Part shown: in pieces, positions 1,286 to 38,469 of the stretch
How the letters are laid out: each line of letters opens with the position of its first letter
Numbering within the stretch: the first letter of the stretch is position 1
Origin: a virus
Lineage: Duplodnaviria; Heunggongvirae; Uroviricota; Caudoviricetes
Strand: one strand, 5' to 3'
Length of the DNA: 43,002 nt
Virus record (IMG/VR): IMGVR_UViG_2565956721_000005
Made by a program: the position numbers and the translations under genes
Notes under the pieces: model-generated
The model's input: the letters and a program-made list of their open reading frames with translations, nothing else
Databases searched by the model: none
What the model was told of the DNA's origin: nothing

Positions 1286-1510
1286 AACCGCAGCACGTTC
1301 TTGCTTAAGACGTGCTGCGGCATAATCCCAATGATTACTCCCTGACAGGGTTCGTAGGCCACTCAATATCAGGTGCAGTTGATGTATCAACACGGTTCAG
1401 CAACACCCGATACTTTTTCCAGGCTTCCAGCAATGAGGTTTCTTCCTCCGTTGCAATTTCCAGATCTGCAGCATCCTGAAGCGGCGCAATATGCTCACTG
1501 GCTACCTGCA
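1286..1510. repeat. direct repeat copy 2 (tfa 3' end plus hairpin ccgcagcacgt...acgtgctgcgg)
   Basis: Sequence identity with 236-460; perfect inverted repeat at 1288-1320. Confidence 0.8.
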
Positions 1511-1919
1511 TCAGGTTGTTTTTTGTTTCTTCCGCCTCCCGGATCCGGAACATTTTTTCTGCTTCCGTATCCTTCACCCAGGCTGTGCCGTTCCACTTCT
1601 GAAACTCCCCTTCCGGCGATAACCAGGTAACATTTTCCGGTAACGGACCGAGTTCAGAAATAAATAACTCGTCCCCTGACGCTACGTCATAAACCGTTTT
1701 ACCCCGATGGTCTTCAACGAGATGCCACGATGCCTCATCACTGTTGAAAACAGCCACAAAGCCAGCAGGAATATCTGGTGGTGCAATATCGGTACTGTTT
1801 GCTGGCAGACCTGTATGAGGCGGAATATATGCGTCACCTTCACCAATAAATTCATTAGTGCCGGCCAGCAGATTATAAATTTTTATGGTCCGTGCTTGTT
1901 CACTCATTCTGAATGCCAT
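1335..1919 (-). CDS. tfa: tail fibre assembly protein Tfa
   Basis: 194 aa, [24 protein letters not shown]... near-identical to recalled lambda Tfa; ATG overlaps stf stop (TAATG). Confidence 0.9.
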
Positions 1920-4894
1920 TATGCAAGCCTCACAATATAGTTAAATGCGATGTTTTTGACGGTGTTTTCCGCGTTACCAGCAGCGTTAACGGTGATGGTG
2001 TGTCCATGTGAACCAATCGCAACGGAGTGCGTATGCGCACCAATACCTACAGTATGTGCATGTGCGCCAGAACTTGCTGCAGTACCAGACAGCGAGTGGG
2101 TATGAGCACCTGCTGACTGTGTCTGAATACGTTGATAATACGATCTACGGGAAGAAGTCCCCGGGCTTACTTGATACTGTGAATCCTGGACATAAGTGAA
2201 CCCACCGCCATCATAAAATGCTAACGCAGAACCGCCGCCTCCTGGCCAACGAATACCATTACCATGAGTATGATCACCGGCAGACCCCGTAGAGCCACTC
2301 AGACTGTGCGTATGCGCCCCGGTGTTATTCGTGGATTTGGTTCCGTAATCAAACGACGATGTGTTTTTCGTCCCCAAATCCGTACTGGATGCGCTGGCGC
2401 TGTGGGTGTGCGATTTAATGCCGTCCTGTTCCTGAGACAATACGGCACGACCACTGGCGGGTTTGCCCTTAATCGTCCAGCCACGCATATCAGGGATCAC
2501 GCCTGACGGATAAGCGGCTGCAAGTTTCGGGTATGCAGATTTGTCAAAAGTCTGCCCCTGCATCAGGGCATAGCCAGACGGAACGGTATCTGATGGCCAC
2601 GGGATTGGTGCGCCAGGCGGATAAAACTGCTCTGATGGCGTATAGAGTGAATAAACTGTACCGTCCGTTAACCCTTCCGGCTTATTAGCAGAATATGCTG
2701 GTGACGTATGAATCGTCACGCTGGCATTACTGGTATAATCCCATTGAATATTTACACCAGTCGCATAATTTCCGATTGCAACGTAAATATCGTAAGTATC
2801 ACCAGATGTATTGACCCAGGCAAAATTTGTAAACCCTGTCGATGTGCGCTGCCATAAAGCACCAGTAATCCCCTTCGGATTACCATTACCTGCACGCAAA
2901 ACAAGTTCAGATATACCTGCCTGTTGAGGTGACCCCACGTTAAATCCCGCACCACCAATCAACGTAATTGAAACAACAGAACTCGCCTGTGGCATGGTTA
3001 CCGTTGCTAATTTGAACCAACCAGCACCACCGCTGAATGACATTGTTGTTGAGTTAAGCGTACCAATATCTTTCGGCGTCAGTGTTATATCCGCTGAAAG
3101 CGCCTTACCATTCACCTTACGGGCAGAAGGTACCCGACCATTCGCATTATTATTAGCTGCTTTCACTGCTTTCGGTGTCGCGGCAAGCGTTTCAGATGCG
3201 CTGTTGGTTGCACTACTGAGCTGGACAATTCCTTTTTGTGCTGTCGTAGCGTCCTGAGCAGTATATTTCCCGTTAGCAAGGTCATAGGCTGCCTTTACCG
3301 ACTTTGGCGTTGCCGCCAGCATTTCAGATGTGCTGTTGGTCGCGTTGCTAAGCTGAACTATCCCTTTCTGTGCTGTCGTTGCATCCTGTGCGGTGTATTT
3401 CCCGTTAGCCAGCTCATACGCGGCCTTAACGGCTTTTGGCGTTGCCGCCAGTGACTCGGAAGTGCTGTTAGTCGCACTGCTGAGCTGTACTATCCCCTTT
3501 TTCGTCGTGCTCGCATCCTCAAGCGCCACGGCGGATGCAATATCCTCTGCCCGTTTTGCCGCTGTCTCAGCGCGCGTTGCCGCGGATTCCGCCGTACTTT
3601 TGCTCTGAGCTGCCGCCGTCGCACTGCCAGCTGCCTCTGTCGCCTTCGTGGATGCCGTCGTGGCGCTGCCCTTTGCTGCTGACGCCTGTCTGGTCGCCTC
3701 ATCTTTTGAAGCAGACGCAGATGATGCCGATGACGCCGCCGAACTGGCGGACGATGCGGCAGCCGTTTTTGAGGATTCTGCGCTGGTTTCCGACGCTTTC
3801 GCGTTCGTCTTGGATGTCTTCGCTGCGGAAGCAGACCTCGCTGCTGCGCTGGCCTGTACAGCGGCTTCGCCAGCCTTCGTTGTGGCTGTTGAAGCAGACG
3901 ATGCAGCACTTTCTGCCGATTTTCCGGCGGCGGTGGCACTGGCTGAGGCCTGCCCGGCACTTGTTGACGCGGCACTGGCAGATAATGCAGCCGCTGTTTT
4001 TGAGTCTGCCGCAGCTGAGGCGCTCTGTCCCGCTGCCGTTTCAGAAGACCTGGCGTTCGTCTCGGACGTTTTTGCCGCCTTCGCAGAATTTGCTGCCGCC
4101 GTTGCCGAGGAAGCTGCGCTGCTGGCGCTCGAGGCTGCGTTCGTTTCTGATGATTTTGCCGCCTCTTTTGAAGCCGACGCATCCCGTGCTGAAGTGGCTG
4201 CTTCTGACGCTTTCGTGGTCGCGGTGGATGCAGAAGTGGCTGCTGATTGTTGTGACGCTGCGGCATTCGTTTCTGACGTTTTCGCGGCACTGGCGCTGGT
4301 AGCTGCCGCGCTTTTTGATGACTCTGCAGCAGCAGCACTTTTTGCTGCTTCACGGGCCTTTGTCGATGCCGCTCCTGCGCTGGAAGACGCTGACTGAGCC
4401 GACGACGCGGCCTGTCCGGCTGACGTGCTGGCGGCACGTGCTGAGGCTGCAGCATCGGTTGCATGAGTTGCCGCCTCGCTGGCTGATGCACTGGCATCGC
4501 TGGCTGATTTTTTCGCGGCTGCCGTATTCTGTGCAACCGCGGAGGCGTTACGTGACACCTCTTCCACCATCTGCTCAAAGCGGCGCAGTGCCTCCGGTCG
4601 GACATCATCCTCCGTCATGGCACCGAGAAAATCATTCAGCGTACCTGGTCTGGAACCTTCATAGACGGTAATGGTCCCGGCATGTGAAGGCGGAAAACCT
4701 TCAACCAGCAGGGTGACGCTGTACTGACCATGCTCAACATCCATGCTGTAACGCCCGGCTTCATCCGGATTTTCAGAGGCCACCGTGTTCACCACCACCG
4801 TGCTGCTGGTCCGTCTGGCCTTCAGCACAATGGTGCAGTTCTGTACTGGTTTTCCTGTGCCATCTTTAAGCACGCCAGAAATTTTTACTGTCAT
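1919..4894 (-). CDS. stf: side tail fibre protein Stf
   Basis: 991 aa; N-terminus [20 protein letters not shown]..., Ala/Ser-rich central repeats and C-terminus ...[31 protein letters not shown] match recalled lambda Stf. Confidence 0.9.
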
Positions 4895-22712: not shown

Positions 22713-23019
22713 ATCATAACGTCCGGTTTCTTCCGTGCCAGAACCGGACTCGCTGGCATGATGAAATATGTGTACCCGGTAACCCCGGTGTGCATCGTTT
22801 TTGATTATTCCCCCACACTTGTGCAGAAGGAGTTCCCCGTCAGGCTACAGTCATAATTAATGCAAGAGTACAGCGACGATACAGCGCACAGAAATAAATC
22901 AGGTATCCATTGACTTCACAAAGACGGTACATAGCATCGACAGGAGTAATTGCGTAAATTGAACTCTTGGCACACTTTAGCCACCGGCGAATCTTCAGCG
23001 GATTATCCTTGGCCGGTTT

Positions 23020-23484
23020 TTATCTGAGGCATTGCTCTCGAATGTATAGCTGTGCCCCTTCAAGTTGTTTTTGCATTATTATCAGTCGCGCTCTGAGGGT
23101 GAAATAATCCCGTTCAGCGGTGTCTGCCAGTCGGGGGGAGGCTGCATTATCCACGCCGGAGGCGGTGGTGGCTTCACGCACTGACTGACAGACTGCTTTG
23201 ATGTGCAACCGACGACGACCAGCGGCAACATCATCACGCAGAGCATCATTTTCAGCTTTCGCATCAGCTAACTCCTTCGTGTATTTTGCATCGAGCGCAG
23301 CAACATCACGCTGACGCATCTGCATGTCAGTAATTGCCGCGTTCGCCAGCTTCAGTTCTCTGACATTTTTGTCGCGCTGGGCTTTGTAGGTAATGGCGTT
23401 ATCACGGTAATGATTCAGCCCCAGACTAAGCGCACCACAGGCCACCAGCAGGGCAATGATGACCACGCACAGTACGCGGTTCAT
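23020..23484 (-). CDS. Rz: i-spanin Rz
   Basis: 154 aa ...[78 protein letters not shown]... near-identical to lambda Rz. Confidence 0.95.
23082..23264 (-). CDS. Rz1: o-spanin Rz1 (lipoprotein embedded in Rz, +1 frame)
   Basis: 60 aa [58 protein letters not shown] matches lambda Rz1. Confidence 0.9.
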
Positions 23485-23485
23485 T

Positions 23486-23584
23486 TCACCACCAGCGTAT
23501 CTGACCGATGAAATAACCAGAGGCCATAATCACAAACACCAGCCAGATAAGAATGAACTTCCAGGTGGATAATTTTTCAGCCAT
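23486..23584 (-). CDS. candidate 32-aa hydrophobic peptide ORF immediately upstream of Rz (unannotated class)
   Basis: ATG preceded by GGGAGA RBS; [32 protein letters not shown]; stop 1 nt before the Rz ATG. Confidence 0.35.
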
Positions 23585-23664
23585 CACTCGAATCTCCCGA
23601 ATCAGTTTGCTAAAATCAAACACACTTTCTCCTTTGACTTTTCCGGAGTCAGGAAACACAAAAC

Positions 23665-23700
23665 CCCGCTTGGAGCCAACAAACGGGGTTTTTACTTTTA
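23665..23700. terminator. bidirectional hairpin terminator between endolysin and small ORF/Rz
   Basis: CCCCGCTTGGAGCCAACAAACGGGG with T-runs on both strands. Confidence 0.5.
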
Positions 23701-23782
23701 TTCACTTACGTTTCGCCACTTCGCAGGATTTCATGTTATCCGCCCGCGTGGCCATGCCTTATTTTTCAGCAAAATATTCTGC

Positions 23783-24316
23783 TTATCTGTCGATACCCCA
23801 GCACGCCAGCGCGCTCTCCTGGTCACGACGGGATACCTGACCGTAGCAGTTGTTTGAACGAATACGGCAGTCTCTGCCACCGTCCTTAATCCACCAGCGA
23901 ATCGCCTCACACGCTCCCCTGCGATCACCTGCATTAATTCGTTTATAAAACGTCGACGGGAAACACTTACCGGGACCAATGTTGTACGGACAGAATGACG
24001 CGATCCCCGCTTTCTGGGGTTCGCTCAATGGCACTTTGATGTTTTTCTCCACCCATGCCAGCGCCTTATCACGCTCAATGGCGTTGACCTGGTCGCATTT
24101 TTCCTTCGACAGTTTCATACCGGGAAAAACGGGTTTTCCATCCACCATCGTGGCCCCCCGACAGATGGTCCAGTTGCCGGAACCATCGCGGTATGCCGTA
24201 GTGTGGTTACCCTCTTTTTCATCCAGAAACTGGTCAAGTATCTGAGGAGCTGATGCGCCTGCTCCAATCAGCGCCAGAACTGCAGCTGACAGGCCGTATT
24301 TGATTTTTGCGTTCAT
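23783..24316 (-). CDS. R: SAR endolysin (T4-lysozyme-like, GH24) with N-terminal signal-anchor-release domain
   Basis: 177 aa; Gly/Ala-rich weakly hydrophobic N-terminus then E...D...T catalytic spacing; matches recalled RrrD/P21-type lysozymes. Confidence 0.9.
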   Translation of the reverse strand: MNAKIKYGLSAAVLALIGAGASAPQILDQFLDEKEGNHTTAYRDGSGNWTICRGATMVDGKPVFPGMKLSKEKCDQVNAIERDKALAWVEKNIKVPLSEPQKAGIASFCPYNIGPGKCFPSTFYKRINAGDRRGACEAIRWWIKDGGRDCRIRSNNCYGQVSRRDQESALACWGIDR

Positions 24317-24421: not shown

Positions 24422-24694
24422 ATGGACAATAGCACCATTTCTCTACAGGAGTTGCTCGACTGCATTTCCAGGCTTCGGGATGATGTAAATGCCCTCACTG
24501 TTGCATTTTCACATCTGGCCTTATCAATTCCCAGGGAGCAAATGCTGCCAACGCTGGCATCCATTCATTTTGAATCACGCAACCCCAAATGGTCCCAGGA
24601 ACAACAAAATTCTTTCAAGTGGCTGGCGGCATTGCTGGAAGAAAATTATGCTGGCAAAACTACCATTTCGGCGGAGTCTTCAGGGAACCAGTAA
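24422..24694 (+). CDS. hypothetical 90-aa protein on the strand opposite the lysis genes
   Basis: AAGAGGA RBS 6 nt before ATG; plausible helical protein; overlaps 3' end of the ydfR-like gene by 35 nt. Confidence 0.4.
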   Translation: MDNSTISLQELLDCISRLRDDVNALTVAFSHLALSIPREQMLPTLASIHFESRNPKWSQEQQNSFKWLAALLEENYAGKTTISAESSGNQ

Positions 24695-25004
24695 TCCTTC
24701 CCGGTAGCTTTCCTTTGTAGGTTATCCATACATTCTGCGCCTCTAAAATTACGGGGCGCTTTTCCGGCGACTGCTCATCCCCTTCACATAACCCGGCAGC
24801 GACATCCAGGAAGACCTGTCTGATGCTCCTTCTGGCCGCTGCCTCATAAAACTCCAGCGCAGCACCTTCAACACGGTCCAGCGAGATGTCCAGGTCAAAA
24901 ATTTCACCGTCAAAGCGTTCTTTGTCCTGTAATGCTAAAGTTACCGTAACTTTATTCTCAAAATTGCGGATCCCTTTCACAATCAGTTCATAGTTTTGAG
25001 TCAT
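24660..25004 (-). CDS. lysis-cassette protein of unknown function (YdfR/DUF1327-like, from memory)
   Basis: 114 aa, start 4 nt after holin stop with RBS GGGGAGAG inside the holin 3' end. Confidence 0.55.
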   Translation of the reverse strand: MTQNYELIVKGIRNFENKVTVTLALQDKERFDGEIFDLDISLDRVEGAALEFYEAAARRSIRQVFLDVAAGLCEGDEQSPEKRPVILEAQNVWITYKGKLPGRITGSLKTPPKW

Positions 25005-25008
25005 TGAA

Positions 25009-25224
25009 TTACTCTCCCCGTGCCGCCTTACGACGGTCCTCTCTGATTTTGAAATACAGGTTAGTCAGATATGTCAGCAGCCCAAACAGCAGACTCCCCA
25101 GCACGCCTATTGCCGCCCACTGAGACGGGGAAACCCTGTCCAGCAACTGCAGGAACCAGTAGCCCGTTCCCACCGCTGACGTGGTGTATGACACACCTGT
25201 TGTGATTTTTTCCATCTGGTCCAT
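25009..25224 (-). CDS. S: pinholin (S21-like class II holin) with dual-start motif MDQM
   Basis: 71 aa ...[46 protein letters not shown] matches recalled phage 21 S; ORF track start at 25329 is an upstream extension. Confidence 0.9.
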
Positions 25225-25492
25225 ACCCCGTCTCCCGTTATCCGGAAGCTGAAAACAATAAAAAAGCCACCAGTTAACTACTGATGGCTCTGATAACTCA
25301 TGCAAGCGTCTCAGACGACCCACTGACACTACCGGTGAGTTTAACGATACCTTCCATTTGACTGGCTCACTTTTTATGATGATGCCGATGCATTTATCTC
25401 CAGCGCCAGACTTTCTATCTCAACGCCATACGTTACATTTTTGGTAATATCCATCAGCGTCAGTGCATTTAGTCCCACTGCCAGACTGTCTT

Positions 25493-25942: not shown

Positions 25943-25954
25943 GCCCACAAGAAA

Positions 25955-26190
25955 ACCCCTCCGGAGAGGGGCTAAAGCCGCGTATCTGTATCATCATGCA
26001 CATGGTGCCGGGTGCCTCCCGGTGAGTTCAGCCCGGTGCCACTAAACCCGCGTCATTCTCGTTTTGATAATCAGAGATTATACCGTCACCAGTCGCCCCT
26101 CCGCTCAGGGGGATTCACCATGCGAAATTTTTTTAACAAATGCCCAGTCTGACAGGCAACTGTCAACTTACTGAATTGTGAGCAACATAG
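25955..26190 (-). repeat. direct repeat unit 1 (about 215 bp) with conserved GC hairpins, ending in a minus-strand intrinsic terminator (25955-25978)
   Basis: Shares long identical blocks with 26440-26655; terminal CCCCTC-TCCG-GAGGGG followed by TTTTCTT. Confidence 0.75.
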
Positions 26191-26255: not shown

Positions 26256-26439
26256 AGCGGTCATGTGATGCCGGTTTCCCGGTAACTCAGCACCGGTATC
26301 TGAGTCAACGTTTTCTCTACTGGGTCATTTCCGATACGCCCTGCCTGCTGACAGGCTTTCATCACATCTGAAAATATAGCACCCTGACTGATACTGTAGT
26401 ACCTAAGGTTCCAGAAACTGTGATGTATCCGGCACAGAA

Positions 26440-26655
26440 AAGCCCCTCCGGAGAGGGGCTGGAGAGTGGCGCTATGTGCCATTGCATGGTGCCGGGTGCC
26501 TCCCGGTGAATTCAGTACCAGCACCTGAATCCGCGATTATCCCATATACCTACTCGCTGATTGCCCCTCCGCACAGGGGGATTCACCATGCCAGTTTCTT
26601 TTAACAAACTCCCCGCAAACCAGACAACAGTCAACCGCCTGAATTGTGAGACATT
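26440..26655 (-). repeat. direct repeat unit 2, paralog of 25955-26190, ending in a minus-strand intrinsic terminator (26443-26466)
   Basis: Conserved blocks GGTGCCGGGTGCCTCCCGGTGA, CCCCTCCGC.CAGGGGGATTCACCATG, CAGTCAAC..CTGAATTGTGAG; terminal CCCCTCTCCGGAGGGGCTTTTCT. Confidence 0.75.
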
Positions 26656-26695: not shown

Positions 26696-26772
26696 TGGCG
26701 CGTTGTACTGGATTCGAACCAGTGACCGATTGCTTAGAAGGCAATTGCTCTGTCCGGCTGAGCTAACAACGC
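26696..26772 (-). tRNA. argO: tRNA-Arg, anticodon UCU (reads AGA/AGG); argO-like
   Basis: Cloverleaf read by hand: acceptor GCGTTGT, anticodon loop CTTCTAA, T-arm ACTGGTTCGAATCCAGT, 3' GCCA. Confidence 0.85.
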
Positions 26773-26785
26773 AGGATACAGATAA

Positions 26786-26862
26786 TGGACCGCCTTCGGG
26801 GACCCGAACTCCGCGCAACCAGCTTCGAAGGCTGGCGCTCTTTCCTGATGAGCTAATGGCGG
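26786..26862 (-). tRNA. argN: tRNA-Arg-like, anticodon UCG; non-canonical T-loop (TTCGGGT) and one acceptor-stem mismatch
   Basis: Cloverleaf read by hand: anticodon stem CCAGC/GCTGG, loop CTTCGAA, D-loop with GG, 3' ...GGTCCA. Confidence 0.6.
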
Positions 26863-26869
26863 TATGTGA

Positions 26870-26945
26870 TGGTGGCCCTTGCTGGATTTGAACCAGCGAC
26901 CTGGCGATTATGAGTCGCTCGCTCTCACCACTGAGCTAAAGGGCC
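26870..26945 (-). tRNA. ileZ: tRNA-Ile2, anticodon CAU (lysidine type, reads AUA); ileZ/ileX-like
   Basis: GGCCCTTTAGCTCAGTGGTGAGAGC...CTCATAA...GGTTCAAATCCAGCAAGGGCCACCA; near-identical to recalled E. coli ileX. Confidence 0.85.
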
Positions 26946-28616: not shown

Positions 28617-29438
28617 CTATCGCGTTACCCTCTTTAACTGCCGCTCCGCCCATGCCTCTTCAATGTCAAACCGAACCACCAACGTATCGTAAAAGCGTTT
28701 CACTGATTTTTTCCACGTATCAAGCGTGATAGCACTCGTCACTTTGCATATGGCATTAAATGCCTCCGTTGATGGCAGCCTTTCACAGCCACGACCACCA
28801 CAACGCTGGCAATCTCTGATAACAGGCATACCACGTTTTACCGACTCTTCACGATGAATGGCGACACCACGCCCACGGCAATCCTTACAGGCGGTGGAAA
28901 CCTCACCCTTTCCGCCACACTCCGGACAGGCAACTTTTACCACCTCCCTGACTTTTTTCCATTCTTCCCAGTAAGACGGATACACGCCTTTTGTGCACTT
29001 TGCCCACACTGGTGGCTTACCATCCGGATACTGGATCTTGTTTGTAAAAACCTCGCTTTCAATAAATTTTTTTCCGTGACAGCAAGGGCACTGTTTTTTG
29101 CTCGCCGCGCTACGGGCATAATCTTCAAACGCATACGAAGCCATAATGCGCATCACTACCGGTTTTATTTCTGCCGGAAGTTTTCTCAACGCCGCCACAC
29201 GATCGCACCGACTGAGTGCATAATCTGCCAGTAATTCTGTTGCCCGCGCCCTGTCATTCATACTGATGCCCATTTTCTCCAGGAACGCAGAAAACCCCAT
29301 CTCAGCCCGATTCTGTGTCATGCCCTGCGCGGCCATCACATCAGTGATACTCAGCGCATCTTTTGACGTTGAGGCCGATGCATCGGTCAGGCCAGGGGAT
29401 TTTGGGGAGTAGTATTTCGGTAAATCTTCCAGTTTCAT
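28617..29438 (-). CDS. antitermination protein Q (long Q family with CxxCxGxG zinc-finger repeats)
   Basis: 273 aa with CPCCHGKK, CPECGGKG, CKDCRGRG, CQRCGGRG; positioned immediately upstream of pR'. Confidence 0.75.
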   Translation of the reverse strand: MKLEDLPKYYSPKSPGLTDASASTSKDALSITDVMAAQGMTQNRAEMGFSAFLEKMGISMNDRARATELLADYALSRCDRVAALRKLPAEIKPVVMRIMASYAFEDYARSAASKKQCPCCHGKKFIESEVFTNKIQYPDGKPPVWAKCTKGVYPSYWEEWKKVREVVKVACPECGGKGEVSTACKDCRGRGVAIHREESVKRGMPVIRDCQRCGGRGCERLPSTEAFNAICKVTSAITLDTWKKSVKRFYDTLVVRFDIEEAWAERQLKRVTR

Positions 29439-31315: not shown

Positions 31316-31471
31316 TTACTCCTCAGGTTCGTAAACTGTGAAGACAGCGACCTCCGTCTGGCCGGTTCGGATTCGTACCTCGCAGAGGTCTTTCCTCGTT
31401 ACCAGTGCCGTCACTATGACGGTTAAACAGATGACGATCAGGGCGATTAACATCGCCTTTTGCTGCTTCAT
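31316..31471 (-). CDS. hokD: Hok-family type I toxin (HokD/RelF-like)
   Basis: 51 aa MKQQKAMLIALIVICLTVIVTALVTRKDLCEVRIRTGQTEVAVFTVYEPEE; hairpins at the mRNA 3' end and in the upstream leader as in hok loci. Confidence 0.9.
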   Translation of the reverse strand: MKQQKAMLIALIVICLTVIVTALVTRKDLCEVRIRTGQTEVAVFTVYEPEE

Positions 31472-31686
31472 AGCCTGCTTCTCCTTGCCTTTCGGCACGT
31501 AAGAGGCTAACCTAGATTTGCCGTTCATAGATTGAGCCTCAGATTAATGTTAAGCGTCTTGCAGGACGCGTAATATTAACTGGGGCTTTTCTCTATCTGC
31601 CTTTGGTGTTCATGCCTGAGGCAGATAGCCTCAAGCACCCGCAGCAATTCTACTTAACTCCCGTCACCTCGCCAATATAAAATCAA

Positions 31687-38413: not shown

Positions 38414-38469
38414 TTTCTGGTGACGTTTGGCGGTATCAGTTTTACTCCGTGACTGCTCTGCCGCCCTTT
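38414..38469 (+). ncRNA. dicF: DicF small RNA (ftsZ-targeting sRNA of the dicB operon)
   Basis: TTTCTGGTGACGTTTGGCGGTATCAGTTTTACTCCGTGACTGCTCTGCCGCCC followed by TTTTT; matches recalled E. coli DicF. Confidence 0.85.

What the first reader, a model, noticed from the sequence alone, without database searches (positions are those of the whole stretch)
23486..23700. Unannotated 32-codon membrane-peptide ORF between endolysin and Rz, next to a bidirectional terminator
A minus-strand ORF ([32 protein letters not shown]) has a GGGAGA RBS and ends 1 nt before the Rz start codon. It lies in a 300-bp spacer that also holds a hairpin with T-runs on both strands. The single hydrophobic helix with a C-terminal aromatic/basic end resembles type I toxins (Ldr/Ibs-like) or small lysis regulators, and the plus-strand terminator could end an antisense RNA.
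Basis: seen in the sequence. Interest (0 to 1): 0.6.

Follow-up and report, generated by a model that had tools for sequence, protein, structure and literature searches.

The report
Mobile small membrane-protein cassette in phage late operons
The small ORF between the endolysin and Rz genes is a real, conserved, uncharacterised 45-residue membrane protein that moves between phages as a fixed unit with an upstream two-way terminator, a hidden ribosome site and probably its own antisense RNA, much like a type I toxin-antitoxin locus.

Summary
The ORF, its GGGAG ribosome site, the 1-nt gap to Rz and the 13-bp hairpin with T-runs on both strands are all present.

The conserved frame starts at GTG 23623 and gives 45 aa. 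This is PHROG 6632, and RefSeq sometimes annotates it as a hypothetical protein.

Homologues occur in phages and prophages of Enterobacterales, Pseudomonas and an Azoarcus MAG. All sit in late operons: five unrelated endolysin-to-spanin junctions, plus baseplate, tail, head and pre-terminase sites. The same unit nearly always travels together: terminator hairpin, 32-39 nt leader whose U-tract pairs with the ribosome site, a weak start codon, then the ORF.

Codons 15-45 evolve as protein (dN/dS 0.07-0.3). Codons 3-6 are frozen at the nucleotide level. On the opposite strand they read TGnTAnnnT, an extended -10 promoter, in 33 of 35 lineages, even where the amino acids change. A transcript from it would cover the start site and end at the hairpin, about 80 nt.

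An internal GGAG before Met14 is also kept at the nucleotide level, which suggests two isoforms.

The architecture is type I TA-like, but the peptide belongs to no known toxin, holin or releasin family. Transcription, toxicity and function are untested.

The parts
23486..23623 (-). Small membrane-protein gene, long form: GTG start, 45 codons plus TGA ([45 protein letters not shown]).
   Evidence: ORF read. RefSeq CDS of the same extent, WP_000459345.1. PHROG 6632 matched 1-45 of 45 at E 1e-29. Protein homologues over all 45 residues in Salmonella and Pseudomonas phages. dN/dS 0.07-0.3 for codons 15-45. AlphaFold helices at 4-17 and 20-43, pLDDT 81.
23486..23584 (-). Short form from the internal ATG (Met14), 32 codons.
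   Evidence: Met14 is ATG in 33 of 33 representative lineages. It is preceded by a conserved GGAG or GAGG. Inferred second start; not shown experimentally.
23594..23598 (-). Internal Shine-Dalgarno-like GGGAG, 9 nt before ATG14.
   Evidence: Codon 10 is GAG in 32 of 33 lineages, whereas Glu16 is mostly GAA. In the six commonest codons at position 9, 24 of 33 lineages end in G although the residue varies (R, K, M).
23628..23656 (-). Leader stem in which UUUCCU (23656-23651) pairs with the ribosome site AGGAGA (23633-23628) of the GTG start, closed by a small hairpin.
   Evidence: RNAfold gives this structure in the window and its equivalents in most lineages. The inner hairpin arms differ between lineages but stay complementary: CCTTG/CAAGG, CATG/CATG, CCTG/CAGG, GGCAG/CTGCC, CGTTA/TAACG, CCTTCTG/CAGAAGG.
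23660..23692 (.). Two-way intrinsic terminator hairpin (AAAACCCCGTTTG-ttggctc-CAAGCGGGGTTTT) with T-tracts on both strands. Minus-strand tail 23659-23651; plus-strand tail 23693-23702.
   Evidence: Present 32-39 nt before the ORF in nearly all homologous cassettes. 7 of 11 pairs show compensatory changes. Both strands fold about equally well.
23608..23616 (+). Predicted extended -10 promoter TGCTAAAAT (TG at 23608-23609, hexamer at 23611-23616), embedded antisense in codons 3-6.
   Evidence: TGnTAnnnT is present in 33 of 35 lineages and ends 4-10 nt from the start codon in all but one lineage (18 nt in L186). Codons 3-6 have synonymous identity 0.99, 0.99, 1.0 and 0.87, against a mean of 0.47 for codons 15-43, p = 3e-4. 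The bases equivalent to TG, -12T, -11A and -7T stay fixed where the amino acids change. Not picked up by the two-hexamer promoter scan. Transcription not shown.
23623..23702 (+). Predicted cis-antisense RNA of about 80 nt: start near the GTG, complementary to the start codon, ribosome site and leader, ended by the plus-strand side of the hairpin.
   Evidence: Inferred from the promoter motif and the terminator. No Rfam family matches. No expression data were found.
23783..24316 (-). Upstream neighbour: phage lysozyme-family endolysin whose N-terminus looks like a signal-anchor-release (SAR) domain on reading the sequence.
   Evidence: PF00959 at E 4e-24 and phrog_7.
23020..23484 (-). Downstream neighbour: Rz i-spanin, with Rz1 embedded at 23082-23264. 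Its ATG lies 1 nt after the small ORF's stop, and the TGGTGGTGA end of the small ORF supplies a ribosome-site-like GGTGG.
   Evidence: PF03245 and PF06085. Sequence read. Downstream genes start within a few bases of the stop in several other lineages.

Best explanation
The locus is a self-contained mobile cassette that rides inside the late operons of temperate phages.

The protein. The cassette encodes a 45-residue inner-membrane protein. It has a short amphipathic N-terminal helix, placed in the cytoplasm by the positive-inside rule, then one transmembrane helix and an aromatic/basic C-terminal end (IRWW).

Expression. The gene has no conserved promoter of its own, so it can only be transcribed by read-through from the late promoter. 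In this window that means Q-antiterminated transcription through the upstream hairpin.

Three conserved devices hold expression down:
- an intrinsic terminator placed 32-39 nt upstream of the ORF;
- a leader stem in which the terminator's U-tract pairs with the ribosome site;
- a weak GTG or TTG start codon.

A fourth layer is inferred. An extended -10 promoter is embedded antisense in codons 3-6. It would drive an RNA of about 80 nt that is complementary to the start region and ends at the other face of the same hairpin. This is the layout of a type I toxin-antitoxin locus such as symE/symR or hok/sok.

A conserved internal ribosome site and Met14 suggest a second, 32-residue isoform that would escape both the leader stem and the antisense RNA.

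Function (inferred). The most likely role is a membrane-active late protein that assists or times lysis, kept silent in the lysogen.

Shown: the gene, the conservation of the cassette, purifying selection on the protein, and nucleotide-level constraint at the promoter and internal ribosome-site positions.

Inferred: that the antisense RNA is made, that both starts are used, that the protein is toxic, and that it acts in lysis.
For: Gene and family:
- Full-length PHROG 6632 match and a RefSeq CDS.
- Homologues at 48-98% identity in phages of Salmonella and Pseudomonas and in genomes of 12 genera.
- 73 representatives at the 50%-identity level in 1.84 billion proteins.

Coding signal:
- dN/dS is 0.07-0.3 with saturated dS over codons 15-45.
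- The only length difference at the N-terminus, one codon in Pseudomonas, is in frame.
- The AlphaFold model has two helices.

Cassette:
- The hairpin, leader and start travel together in lysis, baseplate, tail, head and pre-terminase contexts.
- The hairpin shows covariation at 7 of 11 pairs.
- The anti-ribosome-site stem is predicted in most lineages.

Antisense promoter:
- TGnTAnnnT is present in 33 of 35 lineages at a fixed distance from the start codon.
- Codon 3 is xAT for Asp, Asn, His and Tyr. Codon 4 ends in T for Phe, Ile, Leu and Ser. Codon 5 is AGC in 29 lineages and ATC in 3, never TCN or AGT. These keep TG, -12T, -11A and -7T and vary only the free positions.
- P. aeruginosa phage keeps GAT TTT here but uses GAC and TTC elsewhere in the same gene.

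Internal start:
- GAG10 in 32 of 33 lineages, and G at the end of codon 9 in at least 24 of 33 across R, K and M.

Late-operon setting:
- Q antiterminator at 28620-29438, on the same strand and upstream.

Precedents:
- The prophage type I TA hokW-sokW assists lysis by Sp5 (PMC8621323).
- Convergent short sRNAs lie in lambdoid late operons (PMC4104026).
Against: - No transcript, 5' end or ribosome footprint was found. The Hfq-CRAC sRNA list for E. coli O157 Sakai has no entry that I could place at an endolysin-Rz spacer. I did not establish whether Sakai carries the cassette at all.
- The Sakai ribosome-profiling supplements do not contain the peptide.
- There is no convincing -35 hexamer.
- Two of 35 lineages lack the motif.
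- A/U-rich codons just after a start codon can be selected for open mRNA structure. That would explain GAT, TTT and AAA, though not AGC.
- Type I toxins normally have their own promoter, and none is conserved here.
- The downstream late gene often starts 1-4 nt after the stop. That implies the ORF is translated at useful levels late in infection, not merely silenced.
- Met14 is replaced by Ile, Phe or Leu in some distant members.
- The cassette sits in many non-lysis positions, which weakens a lysis-specific role.
Confidence: 0.55

Rival explanations
1. It is an ordinary accessory lysis protein with no antisense RNA: an antiholin-like, releasin-like or spanin-associated small membrane protein. 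It is co-translated with Rz from the late transcript. The hairpin is only an insulating terminator that Q-modified polymerase ignores. Codons 3-6 are frozen because A/U-rich codons near the start keep the initiation region open.
For: - The cassette sits between the endolysin and an Rz-type spanin in at least four unrelated cassette types, with a fifth upstream lysin in Providencia: phrog_7/13, phrog_873, phrog_315/312, phrog_181/1026, phrog_1259.
- Its stop abuts the Rz start.
- Sakai Sp10 has a different 48-aa membrane ORF in the same slot.
- From my own knowledge, P2 LysA occupies the same position. Mu gp25 is a membrane-tethered endolysin regulator (PMC9239132).
Against: - About half of the contexts are not lysis cassettes.
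- There is no similarity to DUF2730 or any holin family.
- AGC at codon 5, and the retention of single bases while residues change, are not explained by A/U-richness.
- The partner endolysins include types without a SAR domain, from reading the N-termini.
Confidence: 0.2
2. It is a lysogenic-conversion moron, for example a superinfection-exclusion or host-modifying inner-membrane protein. It is expressed in the lysogen from context-dependent upstream promoters, and its position in late operons is only a tolerated insertion slot.
For: - It is found in classic moron slots: between tail genes K and I next to other small membrane ORFs in Pseudomonas phages, before the terminase among ParE/RelB, HicAB and BrnA modules, and after a tail fibre gene.
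- It shows mobile, mosaic distribution across hosts.
Against: - No sense promoter is conserved. Cassette homology begins 10-20 nt before the hairpin.
- A terminator sits immediately upstream of the ORF, the opposite of the promoter-gene-terminator layout of morons.
- The ribosome site is sequestered and the start codon is weak.
Confidence: 0.15
3. The functional product is the RNA alone, either a trans-acting prophage sRNA or a transcriptional insulator, and the ORF is incidental.
For: - The only complete promoter-to-terminator unit in the cassette is on the antisense strand.
- Prophage late operons are known to carry convergent short sRNAs such as AgvB and AsxR (PMC4104026).
Against: - Codons 15-45 lie outside the predicted RNA yet are under strong purifying selection, with abundant synonymous change.
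- The protein is recognisable at 35-50% identity where the DNA has diverged.
- The transmembrane helix and the RWW or PWD end are conserved.
Confidence: 0.05

Closest known systems
Type I toxin-antitoxin loci with a cis-antisense RNA over the translation start (symE/symR; hok/sok, of which a copy lies in this window at 31466-31640)
   Same: - A small hydrophobic single-helix peptide of fewer than 50 aa.
- A ribosome site buried in mRNA structure.
- A predicted antisense RNA of about 80 nt whose promoter lies just inside the ORF and which covers the start region. From my own knowledge this is the symR layout.
- The antisense RNA ends at an intrinsic terminator.
- A prophage type I TA can assist lysis (hokW-sokW, PMC8621323).
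   Different: - No sequence relation to Hok, Ldr, Ibs, TisB or any other curated family.
- No conserved promoter for the peptide mRNA; a terminator stands in its place.
- The gene is embedded in, and co-oriented with, phage late operons and abuts the next late gene.
- Toxicity and the RNA itself are unproven.
Dual-start holin/antiholin genes (lambda S107/S105 with the sdi stem; phage 21 S71/S68)
   Same: - Two in-frame starts, each with its own ribosome site.
- A small RNA stem at the upstream start.
- A membrane protein in a lysis cassette.
- An N-terminal extension carrying charged residues.
   Different: - One transmembrane helix and no charged cytoplasmic C-terminal tail.
- The starts are 13 codons apart rather than 2-3.
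- No holin family match.
- The window already has an S21-type holin at 25009-25329.
- The cassette also occurs outside lysis cassettes.
Accessory membrane regulators next to endolysins (Mu gp25 releasin, DUF2730; P2 LysA)
   Same: - A small membrane-anchored protein encoded beside an endolysin, here one whose N-terminus looks SAR-type, and before the spanins.
- gp25 has an N-terminal transmembrane domain and acts on endolysin release (PMC9239132).
   Different: - No DUF2730 match.
- Opposite topology: here the transmembrane helix is C-terminal.
- The cassette is also paired with endolysins that lack a SAR domain, and with non-lysis genes.
Convergent short sRNAs of lambdoid late operons (AgvB, AsxR; EcOnc series)
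   Same: - Short RNAs transcribed against the late operon at insertion-tolerant sites and ended by intrinsic terminators (PMC4104026).
   Different: - Different sequence. The Rfam models for AgvB and AsxR do not match this region.
- Those lie after Q or stx, act in trans on other sRNAs, and do not overlap a peptide start.

Membership tests
PHROG 6632 (phage protein family of unknown function) | Significant full-length match to the family profile | tested here: met
   E 1.2e-29, residues 1-45 on profile positions 1-45 of 45.
Type I toxin-antitoxin system | Small hydrophobic membrane peptide (typically under 60 aa with one transmembrane helix) | tested here: met
   45 aa. AlphaFold helix at 20-43 made of [20 protein letters not shown]. 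Conserved across the family.
Type I toxin-antitoxin system | Antisense RNA gene with its own promoter and terminator, complementary to the toxin mRNA | tested here: inconclusive
   A conserved extended -10 is present in 33 of 35 lineages, with nucleotide-level constraint, and there is a plus-strand terminator. No expression data could be obtained.
Type I toxin-antitoxin system | Toxin gene has its own promoter | tested here: not met
   Cassette homology starts 10-20 nt before the hairpin and leaves only 32-39 nt between hairpin and start. No promoter-like site was found there in the window.
Type I toxin-antitoxin system | Peptide is toxic when expressed and is neutralised by the RNA | not testable with these tools
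   Needs inducible expression with and without the antisense RNA.
Hok/Gef, Ldr, Ibs, TisB, ShoB and other curated type I toxin families | Match to the family profile | tested here: not met
   No family at E up to 1 except chance transmembrane matches, for 30 members in Pfam and NCBIfam. Rfam ohsC scored only 16.6 bits against a gathering score of 50.
Holins (any class) | Match to a holin family, or one or more transmembrane helices plus a charged C-terminal domain | tested here: not met
   No holin PHROG or Pfam hit. The C-terminus is only QIRWW.
Releasin (Mu gp25, DUF2730) | DUF2730 profile match; N-terminal transmembrane helix with a cytoplasmic domain | tested here: not met
   No Pfam hit. 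The transmembrane helix is C-terminal.
Dual-start lysis gene | Two in-frame start codons, each preceded by a ribosome site and both used | tested here: inconclusive
   GTG1 follows AAGGAG and ATG14 follows GGGAG. Both are conserved, and the internal GGAG is kept at synonymous positions. Use of both starts cannot be tested here. Met14 is lost in some distant members.

The most novel reading that the evidence does not exclude
This would be a previously undescribed class of phage cassette: a late-operon-embedded, promoterless membrane peptide with two isoforms. Its long form is gated by a terminator, an anti-ribosome-site stem and a cis-antisense RNA made in the lysogen. Its short form escapes all three. 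The ratio of the two forms would set lysis timing or membrane collapse, in effect a portable holin/antiholin-like timer built on type I toxin-antitoxin logic. On this reading it has been acquired independently by many unrelated lysis cassettes and structural operons across Proteobacteria, including Shiga-toxin phages and prophages of uropathogenic E. coli.
Probability: 0.25. Interest if true: 0.75.

Novelty: new variant of a known kind. Interest (0 to 1): 0.62.

Why it matters
The endolysin-to-Rz interval of lambdoid and Shiga-toxin phages is one of the most studied stretches of phage DNA. Even so, this gene is blank in H-19B and in many Stx phage records, and no paper in the searched library mentions it.

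The region occurs in about one in six complete E. coli genomes. Relatives sit in Salmonella, Yersinia, Pantoea, Edwardsiella and Pseudomonas phages.

If the antisense RNA and the two isoforms are real, the cassette would be a new regulatory design for a late phage membrane protein. It would also be a new candidate modifier of lysis, and hence of toxin release, in Stx phages. It would add a clear case of a promoter written into synonymous and tolerated non-synonymous positions of a coding sequence.

Even on the most conservative reading, it defines a small-protein family with fixed regulatory anatomy that annotation pipelines call inconsistently, as 32, 45 or 57-76 aa, or not at all.

Tried and rejected
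- Rfam, whole window at gathering thresholds and the locus at E up to 10: nothing relevant.
- Pfam, NCBIfam and PHROGs for a named function: only the unknown-function PHROG 6632.
- Literature by accession and by peptide strings: no paper.
- Pas sRNAs (bioRxiv 2026.05.13.724894): different loci.
- Hfq-CRAC sRNA table of Tree et al. I checked EcOnc11 and EcOnc52 in Sakai. EcOnc11 lies downstream of Rz. EcOnc52 lies at the end of ECs_1088, next to IS629. Neither is this element.
- Sakai ribosome-profiling supplements: peptide absent.
- A conserved mRNA structure inside codons 3-13: RNAalifold predicts none, and my hand-found arms were not in register between lineages.
- Strand preference of the hairpin from folding energies: none. 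Means were -22.6 and -21.6 kcal/mol, p = 0.06.
- A second copy of the cassette in the window: none.
- K-12 Qin as a reference: it lacks the spacer, and rrrQ overlaps rzpQ.
- Plus-strand read-through from the ynfO/ydfO genes as the reason for the plus-strand terminator: unlikely as a general explanation, because the hairpin is conserved in contexts without such genes.
Full report
**Setting.** The window is a lambdoid E. coli prophage with its late genes on the minus strand. It is 99.8% identical over this locus to prophages of UTI89, APEC O1, S88 and ATCC 11775. The order along the minus strand is:
- Q antiterminator, 28620-29438;
- a DNA methylase, three tRNAs and two STnc100 copies;
- an S21-type holin, 25009-25329;
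- a DUF1327/YdfR protein, 24660-25004;
- a phage lysozyme-family endolysin, 23783-24316, whose N-terminus looks SAR-type on reading;
- a 298-bp spacer;
- Rz, 23020-23484, with Rz1 embedded at 23082-23264.

**Check of the observation.**
- The ATG at 23584 opens a 32-codon frame that ends at TGA 23488-23486.
- One base separates that stop from the Rz ATG.
- GGGAG lies 9 nt upstream of the ATG.
- The hairpin at 23692-23660 has 13 pairs and a 7-nt loop, with T-runs after it on both strands.
- It folds at -21.5 kcal/mol on the minus strand and -19.4 on the plus strand, against shuffle means of about -13.5.

The frame is open further upstream. The start that other evidence supports is GTG 23623, five bases after AAAGGAG, which gives 45 residues.

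**Is it annotated or known?** Partly.
- RefSeq calls the 45-aa form a hypothetical protein (WP_000459345.1) in some genomes and omits it in near-identical ones.
- CP-1639 lists it as a putative bacteriophage protein.
- One Stx2a phage record extends it to 72 aa.
- H-19B and most Stx phage records have nothing there.
- It matches PHROG 6632, of unknown function, end to end at E 1e-29.
- It has no Pfam or NCBIfam family.
- No paper in the searched library contains its accession or its sequence.
- K-12 Qin lacks the spacer altogether.

**It is a real protein-coding gene.**
- tblastn finds full-length relatives at 60-67% identity in Salmonella phages SPN3UB, FSL SP-016 and SEN34, and at 50% in P. 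aeruginosa phages YMC11/02/R656 and D14H.
- A scan of one genome per species adds Citrobacter, Edwardsiella, Yersinia, Sodalis, Brenneria, Pantoea, Providencia, Trabulsiella, Dryocola, Pseudomonas reactans and an Azoarcus MAG.
- The large protein collections give 108 clusters. An exhaustive profile search gives 73 representatives at the 50%-identity level. All are unnamed.
- Over codons 15-45, pairs of lineages differ by many synonymous and few non-synonymous changes. The window type against L120 shows 11 synonymous and 5 non-synonymous changes. dN/dS is 0.07-0.30 with dS at or near saturation.
- The one N-terminal length difference, in Pseudomonas, is a single codon.
- AlphaFold with the family alignment gives a helix at 4-17, a break at the conserved Ser/Pro, and a helix at 20-43, with mean pLDDT 81.
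- Most charged residues lie N-terminal of the hydrophobic helix. By the positive-inside rule the N-terminus is therefore cytoplasmic. This is an inference.

**The gene travels as a fixed cassette.** In nearly all lineages the ORF is preceded by the same unit:
- an A-tract;
- a G+C-rich hairpin;
- a U-tract reading (U)UUUCU or UUUCC;
- a small second hairpin;
- a purine-rich ribosome site;
- a GTG or TTG start, with ATG in a few lineages.

The distance from the hairpin to the start is 32-39 nt. Similarity to the surrounding phage stops 10-20 nt before the hairpin. Exceptions are rare: L134 lacks the hairpin next to a transposase, the low-G+C L188 has only a weak hairpin, and L101 has a different N-terminus.

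In a 26-sequence alignment, 7 of the 11 hairpin pairs show compensatory changes.

RNAfold pairs the U-tract with the ribosome site in most lineages. In the window UUUCCU 23656-23651 pairs with AGGAGA 23633-23628. The inner hairpin keeps complementarity with at least six different arm sequences.

The start of the long form is therefore structurally masked, weak, and placed directly behind a terminator.

**Genomic contexts.** The cassette is always co-oriented with late genes.

It lies between an endolysin and an Rz-type spanin in four unrelated cassette types:
- phrog_7 endolysin with phrog_13 spanin, in this window;
- phrog_873 endolysin with a lambda-like Rz, in Citrobacter braakii;
- phrog_315 endolysin with phrog_312 spanin, in Edwardsiella;
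- phrog_181 endolysin with phrog_1026 spanin, in Citrobacter Cu233.

A fifth case is Providencia. There a phrog_1259-type lysin lies upstream and the contig ends before a spanin could be seen.

It also lies in non-lysis positions:
- between baseplate genes in SEN34 and Pantoea;
- between tail genes K and I, next to other small membrane ORFs, in Pseudomonas phages;
- between gpT and the next tail gene;
- among head genes;
- between internal virion proteins in the Azoarcus MAG;
- before the terminase among ParE/RelB, HicAB and BrnA modules.

Tandem copies occur. Repeated capture at the endolysin-spanin junction points to a link with lysis. The other sites show that the link is not obligatory.

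**A second layer of constraint in the 5' end of the ORF.** I measured how often two lineages with the same residue also use the same codon, across 33 lineages.
- Codons 15-43: mean 0.47.
- Codons 3, 4, 5 and 6: 0.99, 0.99, 1.00 and 0.87.
- Codon 10: 0.94.
- Codons 7-9: at background, 0.43-0.60.
- Codons 3-12 against codons 15-43: Mann-Whitney p = 3e-4.

The same shows as a three-fold drop in synonymous divergence for codons 2-13, pS 0.23 against 0.63.

**Reading of codons 3-6: an antisense promoter.** The reverse complement of GAT TTT AGC A is TGCTAAAAT. This is an extended -10 element, consensus TGnTATAAT. In the window it lies on the plus strand at 23608-23616. The motif TGnTAnnnT is present in 33 of 35 lineages. 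It ends 4-10 nt from the first base of the start codon in all but one of them (18 nt in L186).

The pattern of change is the telling part.
- Codon 3 is GAT, AAT, CAT or TAT. The residue changes (Asp, Asn, His, Tyr) but the AT that gives -8A and -7T stays.
- Codon 4 is TTT, ATT, CTT or TCT. The residue changes (Phe, Ile, Leu, Ser) but the final T that gives -11A stays.
- Codon 5 is AGC in 29 lineages and ATC in 3, never TCN or AGT. The A and C that give -12T and the G of TG stay, and only the free 'n' base changes.
- The P. aeruginosa phage gene keeps GAT TTT here but uses GAC and TTC further on.

Selection for A/U-rich codons after a start codon could explain GAT, TTT and AAA. It cannot explain AGC. 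It also cannot explain why single bases are held while residues change.

A start about 7 nt downstream of the hexamer falls at the GTG. From there the plus strand runs through the complement of the ribosome site and leader, into the hairpin and its TTTTTACTTTTATT tail. The predicted RNA spans about 23623-23702, roughly 80 nt.

There is no good -35 hexamer, which extended -10 promoters tolerate (established knowledge). The simple two-hexamer scan did not list the site.

I could not obtain any expression evidence. The RNA is in no Rfam family. The EcOnc entries I could place on the Sakai genome are elsewhere. I did not establish whether Sakai carries the cassette.

**Reading of codons 9-10: an internal start.**
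- Glu10 is GAG in 32 of 33 lineages, whereas Glu16 is mostly GAA.
- In the six commonest codons at position 9, 24 of 33 lineages end in G although the residue varies (Arg, Lys, Met).
- Where codon 9 ends otherwise, the codon after GAG begins with G.

A GGAG or GAGG is therefore kept 8-10 nt before the invariant ATG14. It suggests a 32-residue isoform that lacks the amphipathic N-terminal helix. That isoform would escape both the leader stem and the antisense RNA. Some distant members have Ile, Phe or Leu in place of Met14, so the feature is not universal.

**No sense promoter.** Nothing promoter-like is conserved between the cassette boundary and the ORF. The peptide mRNA must therefore come from late-operon read-through. 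In this window the polymerase is Q-modified and should ignore the hairpin (established lambdoid biology). How phages without antitermination cope with the sense-strand terminator is unexplained.

The downstream late gene often starts 1-4 nt after the stop, and the TGG TGG TGA ending supplies a GGTGG. Translation of the small ORF may therefore be coupled to that of the next gene.

**Mechanism proposed.**

In the lysogen, the terminator blocks stray late transcription. The antisense RNA, made from its own promoter, pairs with any leader that escapes. The peptide stays off.

After induction, read-through floods the locus and the peptide is made with the lysis or structural proteins. The short form could come from the open internal start. 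The long form would be made only to the extent that the leader stem and the antisense RNA allow.

What the peptide does in the membrane is unknown. Its size, single helix and aromatic/basic end fit a membrane-perturbing late protein. Its preferred slot beside endolysins and spanins fits a helper or timer of lysis. A prophage type I toxin has been shown to assist lysis (hokW-sokW, PMC8621323).

Rough probabilities:
- real gene, 0.9;
- membrane protein, 0.85;
- functional antisense promoter, about 0.6-0.7;
- two isoforms, about 0.5;
- toxic or lysis-related role, about 0.35.

**Comparison with what is known.**
- The architecture is closest to type I toxin-antitoxin loci with a cis-antisense RNA over the start site: symE/symR (from my own knowledge) and hok/sok. 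It fails one defining feature, a promoter for the toxin gene, and it belongs to none of the curated toxin families.
- It recalls dual-start holins (lambda S with its sdi stem), but it lacks holin features and holin family matches.
- It shares position, but not sequence or topology, with Mu releasin gp25 (DUF2730, PMC9239132) and with P2 LysA.
- Its putative RNA resembles the convergent prophage sRNAs AgvB and AsxR only in orientation and setting (PMC4104026).

I therefore file it as a member of PHROG 6632 and, functionally, as a new variant of antisense-controlled small membrane peptide systems.

**Verdict.** It is an uncharacterised, widespread, mobile cassette with conserved multi-layer control, and a promoter is apparently encoded within the coding sequence. 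Every functional claim beyond 'conserved membrane protein gene with a conserved terminator and leader' is inference and can be tested directly with standard experiments. Interest is 0.62.

Noticed in passing
window 22770-22830 (between ydfO-like gene end 22712 and Rz end 23020): This stretch is homologous to the Hfq-bound site EcOnc10/11/12 of E. coli O157 Sakai. In Sp10 that site lies about 75 nt downstream of Rz, on the strand opposite the late operon. Here it would be the 3' end of the plus-strand ynfO/ydfO-like genes, and a small hairpin and a T-run follow it on the plus strand.
   Followed up: partly
L179 825-971 (Sakai Sp10, ECs_1966): A different 48-aa membrane ORF (MGWLMISDKLITLVKSLCVLVGISFLVMLVAIFFSTAWRVLTLSGLVG) sits directly before Rz, after an antirepressor gene. 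The position just upstream of Rz seems to be a recurrent slot for small membrane proteins.
   Followed up: no
L005 2236-2346 (Salmonella phage SPN3UB): An unannotated 36-codon hydrophobic ORF (MSKRDVSALCFLMAAAVAISGNDGWGWLIFAGIIIL) overlaps the endolysin stop, upstream of the cassette. The window has no equivalent.
   Followed up: no
L189 2001-2141 and 2223-2360; L007 2671-2787; L101 about 2897-3001: L189 carries a tandem second copy of the whole cassette, with a divergent paralogue (MDFRPLVDFMKDGLERYGLWRF...AAIRWW). In Pseudomonas phages and Dryocola, unrelated 34-38 aa membrane ORFs lie next to the cassette.
   Followed up: partly
window 25943-26152 and 26430-26620 (-); 26699-26945 (-): Two STnc100 sRNA copies (161 and 136 bits) and three tRNA genes lie between the late promoter region and the holin gene.
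   Followed up: no
window 31466-31640 (-): The Rfam sok antitoxin model matches at 113 bits, so a hok/sok type I toxin-antitoxin locus is present in the same prophage.
   Followed up: no
window 38415-38466 (+) and 1378-1576 (-): DicF sRNA (77 bits) and the IS009 RNA element (224 bits) are present.
   Followed up: no
window 25009-25329 (-): The mechanical holin ORF is 106 codons from a GTG, whereas RefSeq annotates a 71-aa class II holin in the near-identical locus (L001 1126-1341). The true start or starts, including the usual S21-type dual start, were not examined.
   Followed up: no
window 24422-24694 (+): A 90-codon ORF runs antisense to the junction of the DUF1327 and endolysin genes. It corresponds to a RefSeq 'hypothetical protein' (WP_001351274.1, L001 1656-1928) and may be an annotation artefact.
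   Followed up: no
window 23020-23484 (-): The Rz protein is lambda-like from about residue 24 onward but has a different N-terminal membrane segment. This comparison is from my memory of lambda Rz. It suggests that the right-hand recombination junction of the insertion lies inside Rz.
   Followed up: no
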